In this document: positions 3,534 through 5,255 of the stretch, one piece after another
Layout: each line of letters begins with the position of its first letter
Position numbering within the stretch: the stretch's first letter is position 1
Origin: Escherichia coli
Lineage (GTDB): Bacteria > Pseudomonadota > Gammaproteobacteria > Enterobacterales > Enterobacteriaceae
Assembly (NCBI RefSeq): GCF_024223415.1
Contig: NZ_CP100501.1
Direction: 5' to 3' (one strand)
DNA length: 64,000 nt
Notes under the pieces: generated by a model
Told to the model about the DNA's origin: nothing
Database searches by the model: none
Seen by the model: the letters and a program-made list of their open reading frames with translations, nothing else
Translations under genes and position numbers: made by a program

Positions 3534-4419
3534 CTGTTCTCCAATGACTAGTCTAAAAACTAGTATTAAGACTATCACTTATTTAAGTGATATTGGTTGT
3601 CTGGAGATTCAGGGGGCCAGTCTAAAGAGTAAGGAACTTACTGATTCATTTAATATTATTATCCATCAATAACTGAGCATACAAAAAAATAACAAAACTC
3701 TGACACAGATACAACCAGCTCTCTCTATATCAGACTGACATTCTTCTCAAAAAGAGGCGTGTTCTGGAACACGGAACAGAAGCAATGAACATTGTAGACA
3801 GAAACACACTCTGTTTTTTACACGAGGATATATGTCGGGAAAATCAGGCAGAAGAAATTAAAGGACTTTGTGCATACAAAGGGAAAGCGCGTTTCCGGTG
3901 CACCATATTAGATATTATCCCTGCTACAAACACCAGAGACGCGCTCATAACTCTTCTAGCGTAAAATATCCTTTCAGGCAAGGAAAAGGTCGTGATACAG
4001 AATCACGACCTTAATTTTATCGAAAACACGGATTTTAGTATGCACATGACTGTACTCCTCAGGAGTACAGGGAAATCATAATCAGTAACAAAAACACCCG
4101 GCAACAAAAATTTAACGCGTTTACGCTATTTTTGTGACAAATATTGCAAATATGGAATCACTGTATTTTTACTGCAACAAAATCTGGTTGATCCACAGGC
4201 GGATCCGGGGTAAAAAATTATCCGGAATGTTTCTGCGTGGTGTGGTAAAACCTCTAGCCGGATTGCCTTTGCAGCAACGCAGGAACATTCCATCCTTTAT
4301 CAGTACTCCTGACGCTGTAAAGACCTGGCTGATGCAGACAGGACTGCTGATATCGAATCAAAGCTTTCTCATTTTTTCGCGTACACAAAATAAAACAAAT
4401 CAGGCAATTCCTTACACTC

Positions 4420-4448
4420 CCCCTCTAAAATTGAGGGGTTTTTTTTTA
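4420..4448 (+). terminator. putative intrinsic terminator (GC hairpin CCCCTC/GAGGGG followed by T9)
   Basis: Read directly: ccccctctaaaattgaggggttttttttt. Confidence 0.4.
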
Positions 4449-4759
4449 CCATATAAATTACTTGCACAGCTTTTAAAAAAATTGCAAATCTTTACTGTAG
4501 TGTCGGGCTTCATGTAGCTCAACAGGGCATGGACTAAAAAGAAGTAAACCCATCTTTTATCTCCCTGATATGGGGGTCTTTGTGGCATAAAGAATTCCTT
4601 GAATTATTATTTTGATCATATCAACATGAAAAGAATAATACTCTGACTTTTGATTTCCAGTGCCAGATATAAAATCAAATTCACTGTAAATATCACATAA
4701 TGATATCTGGCTGCCCCCAGTCACTTCCTGTATTCAGCCACACATATAAGCCCCCTGAA

Positions 4760-4798
4760 TTTCCTTGTGGTTTTTATGTGATAAAAACCACAAGGAAA
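4760..4798. repeat. perfect 17-bp inverted repeat with 5-nt loop (TTTCCTTGTGGTTTTTA tgtga TAAAAACCACAAGGAAA)
   Basis: Read directly from sequence; lies in the AT-rich non-coding island. Confidence 0.6.
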
Positions 4799-4885
4799 CG
4801 ATGGTTGAAATAATATTTAAAATGTGAAAGATATCACCCGTAGAATTTTTCAATCCGACACTCCATAGAATGGACCTTTAAGATT

Positions 4886-4915
4886 TAATCCTCATCATGT
4901 ATGAGGATTTTTTTT
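4886..4915 (+). terminator. putative intrinsic terminator (AATCCTCAT/ATGAGGATT hairpin followed by T8)
   Basis: Read directly: aatcctcatcatgtatgaggatttttttt. Confidence 0.4.
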
Positions 4916-5255
4916 CTGGCAGACAAAAATATCTTTTCAGCAATCCCTGTTCAGTTCCGGTTCTGGTGACTCTGGAAGAGGTATTGTTACACGCTATAAC
5001 CTGCCGGAATGACTCAGGTCCGTTCATCTCTGATACCATTAAAAGAAGCATTAAGCACATTCTGAGCGCCTCTTACAGAAGAAGCGGAACGCGTTCCTGG
5101 CTCCTGTTGCATAATCTTACTAACCCCATGGTTTTCTTGACTGCCAGAAACGCGCCCACAGTTTTTTTAGCCTGTCTCCGGTTCCTTGTCTAGAATACTG
5201 TTGATTTTTTGTTTGAACCGCCCCGGGTTTCCTGGAGAGTGTTTTATCTGTGAAC

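What the first reader, a model, noticed from the sequence alone, without database searches (positions are those of the whole stretch)
3625..5215. AT-rich 1.6-kb non-coding island with strong hairpins and two terminator-like structures
Between the IS2 and IS629-like copy 2 there is no convincing ORF (the 127-aa track ORF reads through a terminator-like hairpin). The stretch contains a perfect 17-bp inverted repeat (4760..4798), two hairpin plus T-run structures (4420..4448 and 4886..4915) and other short palindromes (around 3990..4010 and 4050..4070). It may hold small RNA genes, a decayed gene remnant or an origin-like or regulatory region captured between IS elements.
Basis: seen in the sequence. 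Interest (0 to 1): 0.35.

Follow-up and report, generated by a model that had tools for sequence, protein, structure and literature searches.

The report
Conserved plasmid non-coding RNA island
The AT-rich stretch is a real, protein-free module shared only by a few dozen E. coli plasmids; it keeps its hairpins and terminators through compensating mutations, so it most likely makes structured non-coding RNAs of unknown role, and here insertion sequences have cut it.

Summary
Window 3625-5215 is AT-rich, has no credible gene and holds the reported hairpins, with 7 terminator-like sites against 1.4 expected.

It is not random spacer. The same 1.6 kb occurs only on E. coli plasmids, in 36 of 5426 complete genomes and never on a chromosome. 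There are three lineages:
- Type A is 99% identical and sits on large IncI-type plasmids.
- Type B is 79% identical and is a 2.3-kb insert in 8.9-kb ColE1-like colicin plasmids.
- Type C is about 60% identical, rearranged, and sits on Col8282 plasmids.

No reading frame survives between lineages: 18 of 20 indels are not multiples of 3, and synonymous to non-synonymous changes run about 1:3. Six perfectly identical runs of 30 nt or more and four + strand terminators do survive.

The core, 3978-4447 on the + strand, folds exceptionally well (z = -6.2). Its helices are kept by compensatory and G·U changes, and a covariance model built from A and B finds C.

I read it as a cluster of plasmid non-coding RNA genes, possibly including a cis-antisense pair. 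It travels with the orphan STAXI and EFASI motifs.

IS2 is inserted inside it, and IS629 removed its right end. Function is untested.

The parts
1921..2166 (-). orf81, a small basic protein gene.
   Evidence: L007 carries the uninterrupted junction. The gene is intact in type A and frameshifted or truncated in type B. It has no family match. Relatives at 53% identity sit on about 370 Klebsiella ColE1-like plasmids, and in the two examined they lie divergently upstream of the bacteriocin gene.
2167..2293 (-). Left continuation of the island. It includes a degenerate minus-strand terminator ('IR-L': hairpin 2272-2287, and an A-run at 2265-2271 that reads as a T-run on the minus strand).
   Evidence: It aligns with the strong minus-strand terminators of type B (L002 about 2762-2790) and type C (L016 4582-4600).
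2294..3624 (-). IS2 inserted into the module, with target duplication AAGAG at 2289-2293 and 3625-3629.
3625..3714 (-). Candidate minus-strand sRNA 'RNA-c'. The body is 3679 down to 3625 and then continues at 2293; the promoter-like site is -35 TTGTAT at 3709-3714 and -10 TATTTT at 3686-3691. IS2 cuts it off from its terminator here.
   Evidence: Identity to type B is 95-97% over 3653-3712 and 84% to type C. The promoter hexamers are identical in A and B. The transcribed part is paralogous, in inverted orientation, to 4365-4454.
3817..3844 (+). Promoter-like site, TTTACA-16-GAAAAT, conserved in type B. It is a possible start of the + strand transcript.
3886..3945 (.). Conserved 15-bp imperfect hairpin. 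The strand is not resolved.
   Evidence: repeat I8. The fold has z = -3.3. Identity between A and B is 90-95%.
3978..4447 (+). 'S2', the core structured RNA of about 470 nt. It comprises H1 (3986-4012), an invariant linker (4013-4049), H2 (4050-4070), a CA-rich tract, H3 (about 4106-4133), a long hairpin (4224-4291), a hairpin at 4300-4350, and intrinsic terminator T2 (stem 4420-4438 plus U9 to 4447).
   Evidence: MFE is -138.9 kcal/mol with z = -6.15 on the + strand, against -3.56 on the minus strand. The homologues give z = -4.7 and -4.6. A covariance model built from A and B finds C at 52.5 bits, E = 4e-9. In the pair counts 94% of cells are paired, against 81 +/- 2 shuffled, and 13 pairs carry double changes. 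In the long hairpin 60 of 60 cells are paired, including 7 G·U cells that would be C·A on the other strand.
3976..4104 (-). Candidate antisense sRNA 'RNA-a'. Promoter: -35 at 4099-4104, -10 TATGAT at 4075-4080. The RNA runs from about 4068 down to about 3978, made of H2', a 38-nt single-stranded stretch, H1' and a U-run. It is fully complementary to the 5' domain of S2.
   Evidence: This is the best promoter conserved between A and B in the island. The fold has z = -4.2 in A and -3.6 in B. It is not supported in type C (z = -0.2, no promoter).
4498..4585 (+). 'S3', a candidate sRNA-like unit ending at terminator T3 (4562-4576 plus UCUUUGU).
   Evidence: Identity is 95-97% over 4488-4547, with a 36-nt identical run at 4523-4558. 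The terminator is kept, and is stronger, in type B. The fold itself is not unusual (z = -0.15).
4585..4800 (.). Variable AT-rich spacer containing the perfect 18-bp inverted repeat (4760-4798).
   Evidence: Identity between A and B is 50-55%, and the repeat is absent from B. In L008-type plasmids IS1 interrupts the island near 4784-4792. There is weak similarity to the AT-rich region of type C.
4805..4917 (+). 'S4', a candidate sRNA-like unit. It has a promoter-like site (TTGAAA-16-AAAGAT, 4805-4832), a small hairpin (4862-4874), a linker, and terminator T4 (4887-4909 plus U8).
   Evidence: Identical runs of 40 nt and 34 nt at 4844-4883 and 4888-4921. Terminator, fold, promoter.
4918..5157 (.). 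'S5', a conserved tail with the 12-bp palindrome GGAACGCGTTCC (5086-5097) and a GCCAGAAACGCG block (5143-5154).
   Evidence: Identity between A and B is 82-93% over 5012-5110. The GCCAGAAACGC block also occurs in type C, at L016 4459-4469. The ORF annotated here in one type B record carries a stop codon in others.
5158..5216 (.). Tail specific to type A, running up to the IS629-like junction. In other plasmids it continues into a STAXI motif.

Best explanation
The island is a piece of accessory, protein-free backbone from small E. coli plasmids of the colicin/ColE1-like and Col8282 kinds. It now sits on an IncI1-type plasmid, where IS2 was inserted into it and an IS629-like element cut off its right end.

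It most likely encodes non-coding RNAs.

Shown:
- The sequence is conserved across three plasmid lineages without any conserved reading frame.
- Conservation is concentrated in blocks next to conserved intrinsic terminators.
- The 470-nt core (3978-4447, + strand) has helices maintained by compensatory and strand-specific G·U substitutions.

Inferred:
- The + strand is transcribed, possibly from the promoter-like site at 3817-3844, through a leaky hairpin H1 into the structured S2 RNA, which ends at T2.
- Two further units of about 80-90 nt (S3, S4) end at T3 and T4.
- On the minus strand two sRNAs of about 90 nt are made. RNA-c has lost its terminator to IS2 here. RNA-a is fully complementary to the first two stem-loops of S2.

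In that 5' domain, lineages A and B differ almost only in the apical loops, while the 50 single-stranded positions (37 of them the linker between the two stem-loops) carry a single change. That is the pattern of antisense-RNA recognition loops in plasmid control systems. I therefore propose that RNA-a pairs with S2 through loop-loop contacts and sets its level or conformation, with a loop specificity that lets lineages A, B and C coexist in one cell.

What S2 itself does is unknown (plasmid maintenance, copy number, competition or a host effect).
For: Distribution:
- Plasmids only: 36 of 5426 genomes and 0 chromosomal places.
- PLSDB hits are only in Escherichia.
- Metagenome hits are only type A or type B.

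Non-coding:
- No ORF is shared between A and B.
- The longest frames open in both are 52 codons or fewer, with synonymous to non-synonymous changes of about 1:3 to 1:4.
- 18 of 20 indels are not multiples of 3.
- There are no Pfam or NCBIfam matches.

Selection:
- 6 identical runs of 30 nt or more, against 0.19 expected (maximum 3 in 2000 shuffles).

Terminators:
- 7 found against 1.4 expected, and T2, T3 and T4 are kept in type B.

Structure:
- z = -6.15, -4.70 and -4.62 for S2 of types A, B and C.
- Model R1, built from A and B, detects C at 52.5 bits.
- 94.1% of cells are paired against 80.9 +/- 2.1 in shuffles, and 13 pairs carry changes on both sides against 6.9 +/- 1.7 (0 of 500 shuffles). 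Slid controls give 39-50% paired.
- In the long hairpin, on a MAFFT alignment not fitted to the structure, 60 of 60 cells are paired, against 43-62% when slid.

Strand:
- 16 G·U cells against 2 A·C cells on the + strand.
- For the long hairpin, z = -4.6 on the + strand against -2.1 on the minus strand.

Antisense:
- The best promoter conserved between A and B is on the minus strand, at 4104-4075, about 90 nt upstream of a minus-strand terminator. RNA-a folds with z = -4.2 and -3.6.
- 5 of the 10 A/B differences in 3978-4075 fall in the 8 loop nucleotides (Fisher p = 2e-4).

Context:
- STAXI lies immediately downstream in fuller type A copies.
- STAXI, EFASI and the S2-like element share one strand of a 4.4-kb plasmid that has a single CDS.
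- Several strains hold A and B together, and some hold C as well.
Against: - There is no expression evidence of any kind.
- Only three effective lineages exist, so the covariation statistics rest on few independent events. The R1 alignment was also fitted to the structure.
- The three H1 loop changes are an exact loop inversion and may be a single event, which weakens the loop-enrichment test.
- RNA-a is not supported in type C: there is no promoter, a C·A mismatch sits in its terminator, and z = -0.2.
- The + strand promoters are weak consensus matches, and S3 alone does not fold unusually well (z = -0.15).
- One natural copy lacks 3990-4318 (L006). In large plasmids, IS elements interrupt the module at three different places. 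So it is dispensable, at least there.
Confidence: 0.55

Rival explanations
1. The conserved hairpins act as single-stranded DNA, not RNA. They would be single-strand initiation signals (ssi) or ssDNA promoter-like structures, used when the small plasmid enters a recipient as a single strand during mobilisation, or on the displaced strand during replication.
For: The hairpins are strand-specific. The module rides on mobilisable plasmids next to mbe genes. Its neighbour STAXI was originally suggested as a possible ssDNA element (PMC2864571). If ColE1 follows the usual rule that relaxase genes enter last, the + strand would be the transferred strand in type B; this is inference, not tested.
Against: Four hairpins are followed by conserved T-runs on the same strand, which is the signature of transcription terminators and serves no purpose in ssDNA. 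G·U pairs stabilise RNA more than G·T pairs stabilise DNA. In type C the element has the same orientation as mobQ, which by the same rule would place it on the non-transferred strand. No stem is long enough to hold -35 and -10 boxes as in Frpo.
Confidence: 0.17
2. It is functionless leftover DNA from an ancestral small plasmid, drifting neutrally. The hairpins and terminators would be relics of genes that have disappeared.
For: The adjacent orf81 is decaying in type B. IS elements insert freely. One copy carries a 330-nt deletion. The element is rare, in 0.7% of complete genomes.
Against: Rate heterogeneity is far beyond chance. Compensatory and G·U-only substitutions keep all the tested helices, including in a 60%-identical lineage. 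Folding z-scores of -4.6 to -6.2 are retained in all three lineages. There is no protein similarity that could identify a lost gene.
Confidence: 0.12
3. It is a degenerate or atypical type I toxin-antitoxin locus, in which S2 is the toxin mRNA and RNA-a the antitoxin.
For: A long, highly structured mRNA-like RNA of about 450 nt sits with a short antisense RNA overlapping its 5' part, as in hok/sok and related loci. A 47-nt element that lies upstream of hok in IncI2 plasmids borders the module in types B and C.
Against: No small ORF is conserved among A, B and C, and none is hydrophobic. No Rfam type I antitoxin or hok-related family matches the island, while sok and AgrB are found elsewhere in the window. 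The 47-nt element is absent from type A.
Confidence: 0.06
4. It is a replication origin or copy-control region: an RNA-primed replicon of the ColE1 kind with S2 as preprimer, or an iteron or DnaA-box origin.
For: The arrangement of an antisense sRNA over the 5' stem-loops of a non-coding RNA of about 470 nt resembles RNAI/RNAII. The apical loops diverge, as incompatibility determinants do. An AT-rich tract follows.
Against: Every carrier already has a typed replicon: ColE1 RNAI and rop in type B, Rep in type C, repZ in type A. There is no RNAI match in the island. There are no DnaA boxes in the island (5 in the whole window, against 4.8 expected, and none between 3625 and 5215) and no iterons. 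S2 ends in a strong terminator rather than at a hybrid-forming origin, and the G-run is not conserved in type C.
Confidence: 0.05

Closest known systems
ColE1 RNAI/RNAII, and more generally plasmid antisense-RNA control systems such as CopA/CopT and the IncI/IncB RNAI
   Same: A short terminator-ended antisense RNA made of stem-loops, predicted to be fully complementary to the 5' stem-loops of a longer structured RNA. The apical loops diverge between co-resident variants while the stems and the linker are kept.
   Different: There is no sequence or covariance-model similarity to RNAI. There are two stem-loops rather than three. The long RNA ends at an intrinsic terminator and has no origin or rep gene downstream. 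The carriers have their own replicons. Transcription is unproven.
STAXI (RF01728) and EFASI (RF02957), orphan RNA motifs of Enterobacteriaceae
   Same: Orphan, enterobacterial, plasmid-associated structured motifs of unknown function. STAXI lies directly downstream of the island in fuller copies, and STAXI, EFASI and the S2-like element are collinear on one strand of pGF43-E.
   Different: The island itself matches neither model, even at E <= 1. It has a different architecture: long hairpins plus terminators, not repeated pseudoknots.
hok/sok-type (type I) toxin-antitoxin loci
   Same: A plasmid-borne, highly folded RNA of about 400-450 nt with a small antisense RNA at its 5' part.
   Different: There is no conserved toxin ORF, no Rfam match, and no 5'-3' fold-back pairing supported by covariation.
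Hfq- or ProQ-dependent sRNA genes
   Same: Units of about 80-90 nt, each with a conserved single-stranded stretch followed by a GC-rich hairpin and a U-tail (S3, S4, RNA-a, RNA-c).
   Different: Targets, chaperone binding and expression are unknown. The promoters are only weak consensus matches.
Single-strand initiation signals and Frpo-type ssDNA promoters of plasmids
   Same: Strand-specific conserved hairpins in non-coding plasmid DNA near mobilisation functions.
   Different: Terminator T-runs follow the hairpins. No long promoter-mimicking stem is present. There is no sequence relationship to test against.

Membership tests
Intrinsic (Rho-independent) terminators | A GC-containing stem-loop followed directly by a T/U-run on the same strand | tested here: met
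   The + strand sites at 3986, 4420, 4562 and 4887 give 7 sites in the region against 1.4 +/- 1.2 expected. T2, T3 and T4 keep both the stem and the T-run in type B, and T2 has a counterpart in type C. Termination itself was not measured.
Protein-coding gene or pseudogene | A reading frame conserved between relatives, codon-periodic substitution, or similarity to a protein family | tested here: not met
   Searches find no shared ORF and synonymous to non-synonymous changes of about 1:3. One search shows 18 of 20 indels are not multiples of 3. Searches give no Pfam or NCBIfam hit. One search finds no bacteriocin, immunity or lysis similarity.
Structured non-coding RNA (generic) | Helices maintained by compensatory substitutions across relatives | tested here: met
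   There are only three lineages, so support is real but thin.
Structured non-coding RNA (generic) | The RNA is transcribed as a discrete species | not testable with these tools
   No transcriptome data are available. Only promoter-like and terminator-like sites were found.
ColE1-type RNAI/RNAII replicon | A match to the RNAI covariance model, with an origin downstream of the preprimer | tested here: not met
   RNAI (RF00106) is found at 87 bits elsewhere on the type B plasmids but not in the island at E <= 1.
Cis-antisense RNA control pair | Convergent or overlapping promoter and terminator on the opposite strand, giving a short RNA complementary to the target's stem-loops | tested here: inconclusive
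   The promoter at 4104-4075 and the minus-strand terminator at H1 are conserved in A and B but not in C. Loop-biased divergence has p = 2e-4, though this may reflect only 2-3 events.
Type I toxin-antitoxin (hok/sok and others) | A conserved small hydrophobic toxin ORF, and a match to a known antitoxin or mRNA family | tested here: not met
STAXI / EFASI | A match to the Rfam covariance model at or near the gathering score | tested here: not met
   There is no hit in window 3000-6000 at E <= 1. STAXI is present only beyond the IS629 cut in other plasmids.
Replication origin (iteron or DnaA type) | DnaA boxes, and tandem or spaced direct repeats next to an AT-rich tract | tested here: not met
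   One search finds only short two-copy direct repeats.
MITE or other non-autonomous transposable element | Terminal inverted repeats with target-site duplication and multiple dispersed copies | tested here: not met
   A 49-90-nt inverted repeat brackets 3625-4454. However, it is the duplicated 3' module of two RNA units, it is not in that arrangement in type C, and the element has a single genomic context per lineage. Target duplications were not examined.

The most novel reading that the evidence does not exclude
The island, together with the neighbouring STAXI and EFASI motifs, is an RNA-only plasmid module. It would consist of a structured RNA of about 470 nt, governed by a loop-specific antisense sRNA and accompanied by several trans-acting sRNAs, that small E. 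coli plasmids use for something not yet described in plasmid biology. Candidates are RNA-based competition or compatibility signalling between co-resident plasmids, or manipulation of the host. This would also give the long-orphan STAXI and EFASI motifs a functional context.
Probability: 0.15. Interest if true: 0.7.

Novelty: new member of a known kind. Interest (0 to 1): 0.38.

Why it matters
Plasmid annotation is almost entirely protein-centred. Here 1.5-2.3 kb, up to a quarter of an 8.9-kb plasmid and most of a 4.4-kb one, is unannotated in all the records examined but evolves under structural constraint.

If the RNAs are real they would add a new family, or several, to the short list of plasmid-encoded regulatory RNAs. 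They would also supply genomic context for two orphan Rfam motifs. The A, B and C variants that coexist in poultry-associated E. coli would offer a natural system for asking how antisense specificity diverges.

For this particular window the practical message is modest. The copy is a damaged passenger: IS2 lies within one unit and the right end is missing.

Tried and rejected
- Rfam scans of the island and of the relatives found nothing inside the island.
- A phage database search found no match.
- Searches of GTDB species representatives and IMG/VR used two conserved 19-20-mers. They returned nothing, or only chance hits without the hairpin context.
- The metagenome scan returned only type A or type B copies, so no new lineage was found for covariation.
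- ARAGORN found no tRNA-like element.
- DnaA-box, iteron and tandem-repeat searches were negative.
- ORF conservation tests, family scans and tblastn with cloacin, colicin, immunity, lysis and TolA/TonB-like proteins of related plasmids were negative. One 33-aa hit at E = 0.017 in a 2-kb database was judged to be chance.
- I considered that the 5' end (IR-L) and 3' end (T2 region) pair to close an 830-nt RNA. I rejected this because A and B show no correlated changes there, and the arrangement is absent in type C (by eye).
- I considered a cer-like Xer core downstream of STAXI in type A. A fuzzy scan shows it is a poor match, about 8 of 22 arm positions differing, so I do not claim it.
- Model R1 found no further copies in the 64-kb window or in ColE1, IncI2 or Klebsiella plasmids.
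- Literature searches on pSMS35_8, Col8282 and colicin R plasmids gave no description of this region.
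Full report
**1. Observation.**
The stretch 3625-5215 lies between the end of an IS2 copy (ending at 3624) and the inverted repeat of an IS629-like IS3-family element (starting at 5217).
- GC is 0.34-0.43, against 0.49-0.57 in the flanks.
- The reported structures are all present: inverted-repeat arms at 4760-4777 and 4781-4798 (18 nt, perfect), hairpin plus T-run at 4420-4447 and 4887-4917, and palindromes at 3986-4012 and 4050-4070.
- Terminator-like sites number 7, against 1.4 +/- 1.2 in shuffles.
- The longest ORF (127 aa, 4134-4517) reads through the 4420 terminator.

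**2. True extent.**
IS2 is a simple insertion. AAGAG is duplicated at 2289-2293 and 3625-3629, and plasmid pTB-nb2 (L007) carries the uninterrupted junction. The module therefore continues leftward through 2167-2293 to a small gene, orf81 (1921-2166, minus strand).

On the right, other plasmids continue about 510 nt beyond 5216. That continuation begins with a STAXI motif (RF01728, 70.4 bits against a gathering score of 40.5). The window lacks STAXI, so the IS629-like element truncated the module.

**3. Distribution.**
The island occurs only on E. coli plasmids. It is in 36 of 5426 complete genomes, with 0 chromosomal places. In PLSDB it is in 38 records, all Escherichia. There are three lineages.
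- *Type A* is 99% or more identical and sits on 93-240-kb plasmids, always among IS elements.
- *Type B* is 79% identical and sits on roughly 8.9-kb ColE1-like plasmids that encode colicin E1 or colicin R (and on a few derivatives of 5.7-23 kb). It lies between mbeD and exc2. Relative to ColE1 it is a 2.3-kb insertion about 120 nt from the cer core.
- *Type C* is about 60% identical, rearranged, and sits on Col8282-type Rep plasmids. The smallest, pGF43-E (4394 bp), has a single annotated CDS (rep). It carries STAXI, a sub-threshold EFASI and the S2-like element on one strand.

Several strains hold A and B together, sometimes with C. Examples are GF60, GF43, strain 135, LH10-b-1, PKF4, PKF11 and EF5-18-41.

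I found no relatives in phages, in GTDB species representatives or in IMG/VR. Metagenome hits are type A or type B only.

**4. Not protein-coding, not an origin.**
- No ORF of A is preserved in B.
- The longest frames open in both are 52 codons or fewer, with synonymous to non-synonymous changes of about 1:3 to 1:4. Three overlapping frames are open at the same place, as chance would give.
- No peptide is shared with type C.
- 18 of 20 A/B indels are not multiples of 3.
- There are no Pfam or NCBIfam matches, and no similarity to bacteriocin-operon proteins of related plasmids.
- There are no DnaA boxes in the island, no tandem repeats, no tRNA-like genes and no Rfam family at E <= 1.

**5. 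Evidence of constraint.**
Identity between A and B is very uneven. It is 95-100% in blocks at 3653-3712, 3892-3971, 4012-4071, 4488-4547, 4844-4923 and 5072-5110. It is 50-55% across 4585-4800.

Six perfectly identical runs of 30 nt or more occur, the longest 51 nt at 4009-4059. Only 0.19 such runs are expected, with a maximum of 3 in 2000 shuffles.

The conserved blocks abut the terminators. The perfect 18-bp inverted repeat lies in the unconserved tract and is absent from type B.

**6. Structure of the core.**
- Region 3978-4450 folds on the + strand with MFE -138.9 kcal/mol and z = -6.15. The centroid is close to the MFE. The minus strand gives z = -3.56 and a divergent centroid.
- The homologues in B and C give z = -4.70 and -4.62.
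- A covariance model (R1) built only from types A and B, with four hand-specified helices in 3978-4140, finds type C on the + strand at 52.5 bits, E = 4e-9.
- On the resulting alignment, 94.1% of cells pair, against 80.9 +/- 2.1 in shuffles (0 of 500). Thirteen pairs carry changes on both sides, against 6.9 +/- 1.7 (0 of 500). Sliding the partners gives 39-50% paired. This alignment is fitted to the model, which inflates pairing.
- The long hairpin 4224-4291 was tested on a plain MAFFT alignment. All 60 cells pair, against 43-62% when slid. Three pairs change on both sides and four vary only by G·U.
- G·U cells outnumber A·C cells 16 to 2 on the + strand. The long hairpin folds at -33.4 kcal/mol on the + strand and -23.8 on the minus strand.
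- The structure therefore belongs to the + strand, the strand that carries terminators T2, T3 and T4.

**7. Transcription units (inferred).**
*Plus strand.*
- A promoter-like site at 3817-3844 is conserved in type B.
- It is followed by hairpin 3886-3945 and then H1, a weak terminator.
- The S2 RNA then runs to T2 (4447).
- Unit S3 ends at T3 (about 4585).
- Unit S4 has a promoter-like site at 4805-4832 and ends at T4 (4917).

*Minus strand.* The two best promoters conserved between A and B in the island each lie about 90 nt upstream of a minus-strand terminator.
- 4104-4075 precedes 'RNA-a', which ends at H1 read in reverse. It folds as two hairpins flanking a 38-nt invariant single-stranded stretch, with z = -4.2 in A and -3.6 in B.
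- 3714-3686 precedes 'RNA-c', which ends at the IR-L terminator. That terminator is strong in B and C and degenerate in A. In this window IS2 separates it from the RNA body.

The transcribed part of RNA-c is paralogous, in inverted orientation, to the last 90 nt of S2. That explains the 49-90-nt inverted repeat bracketing 3625-4454. I found no covariation supporting pairing between the two copies.

**8. Antisense hypothesis.**
RNA-a would be fully complementary to H1, the linker and H2 of S2. In 3978-4075, A and B differ at 10 positions:
- 5 in the 8 apical-loop nucleotides;
- 4 in stems, 2 of which form a compensatory pair;
- 1 in the 50 single-stranded positions.

Fisher p = 2e-4. Hypervariable recognition loops on conserved stems are the known basis of specificity in plasmid antisense systems (established knowledge for ColE1 RNAI/RNAII and R1 CopA/CopT). 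They would allow the observed coexistence of A, B and C.

There are three caveats. The H1 change (ACAGA to TCTGT) is an exact loop inversion and may be a single event. RNA-a is unsupported in type C. Nothing has been measured.

**9. What it is not a member of.**
- It is not RNAI/RNAII. That model scores 87 bits elsewhere on type B plasmids and nothing here.
- It is not a type I toxin-antitoxin locus, because there is no toxin ORF.
- It is not STAXI or EFASI themselves.
- It is not an iteron or DnaA origin.
- It is not a MITE.
- It works most like an antisense-controlled plasmid RNA module plus Hfq-type sRNA genes, and it belongs to no curated family.

**10. Dispensability.**
IS elements interrupt the module at three different positions in large plasmids: IS2 before 3625 in this window, an IS2-like IS3-family element at 3692/3703 in L007-type plasmids, and IS1 near 4784-4792 in L008-type plasmids. 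One type B copy lacks 3990-4318. orf81 is decaying in type B. On large plasmids the module is probably a passenger. Any function is more likely exercised on the small plasmids.

**11. Verdict.**
The sRNA reading is the best supported. The pseudogene and origin readings are not supported.

The finding is a previously unannotated, lineage-restricted family of plasmid non-coding elements with real structural constraint and unknown function. Interest is moderate. The copy in this window is damaged.

Noticed in passing
L007 8546-8703 and L008 9400-9557 (30 nt beyond the window-equivalent 5216); L017 4098-4271 and 357-510: A STAXI motif (70-79 bits) directly follows the island in fuller type A copies. 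On the 4.4-kb plasmid pGF43-E, STAXI, a sub-threshold EFASI (48.6 bits against a gathering score of 51.2) and the S2-like element lie on one strand, and the only CDS is rep. These orphan motifs may form one functional neighbourhood with the island.
   Followed up: partly
L002 about 2795-2845 (minus strand); L016 4251-4301 and 4512-4562; L029 2284-2326: A 47-50-nt element (TGACATCCTC...CCTGAAGGACSGGGTTTTACGGCGYACC) borders the island in types B and C and is absent from type A. It occurs as an inverted pair around a 210-nt segment in type C. It matches 592 plasmids, including IncI2 (about 200 nt upstream of a hok toxin gene) and IncHI2. Its nature was not determined; it could be a hok-mRNA 5' or promoter element, or a small mobile or recombination element.
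   Followed up: partly
window 1921-2166 (minus strand): orf81 is an 81-aa basic protein with no family match. It is contiguous with the island once IS2 is removed, intact in type A, and frameshifted or truncated in type B. Relatives at 53% identity occur on about 370 small ColE1-like plasmids of Klebsiella, and in the two examined they lie divergently upstream of the cloacin gene.
   Followed up: partly
window 3997-4001, compared with L002 (type B): The apical loop of hairpin H1 is ACAGA in type A and TCTGT in type B. These are exact reverse complements, that is, a hairpin-loop inversion, while the stem is kept through one compensatory pair.
   Followed up: yes
L006 (p135-5, 22,976 bp): This plasmid is built of three ColE1-like units, each with a copy of the island. 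One copy lacks the equivalent of window 3990-4318, which is most of the structured core.
   Followed up: no
window 2289-2293 and 3625-3629; 5216/5217: IS2 has a clean 5-bp target duplication (AAGAG). The IS629-like element at 5217 has no matching continuation on its far side in this window, so a deletion or rearrangement removed STAXI and the downstream sequence.
   Followed up: partly
window 11847-11934, 14966-15122, 63838-63988, 421-507, 6072-6188: Rfam gathering-score hits elsewhere in the window are AgrB (antisense of a dinQ-like toxin), sok, the repZ pseudoknot (IncI1-type replicon) and two ALIL frameshift pseudoknots in the IS3-family copies. All are ordinary for an IncI1-type plasmid.
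   Followed up: no
L007 about 8725-8760: The sequence ACCCGTACAA-TTTTTGTG-TTATGAAACTT downstream of STAXI looked like a cer-type Xer core. It differs from the consensus at about 8 of 22 arm positions and failed a fuzzy scan (up to 4 substitutions allowed) that finds the true cer of ColE1 and of the type B plasmids. I do not claim it.
   Followed up: yes
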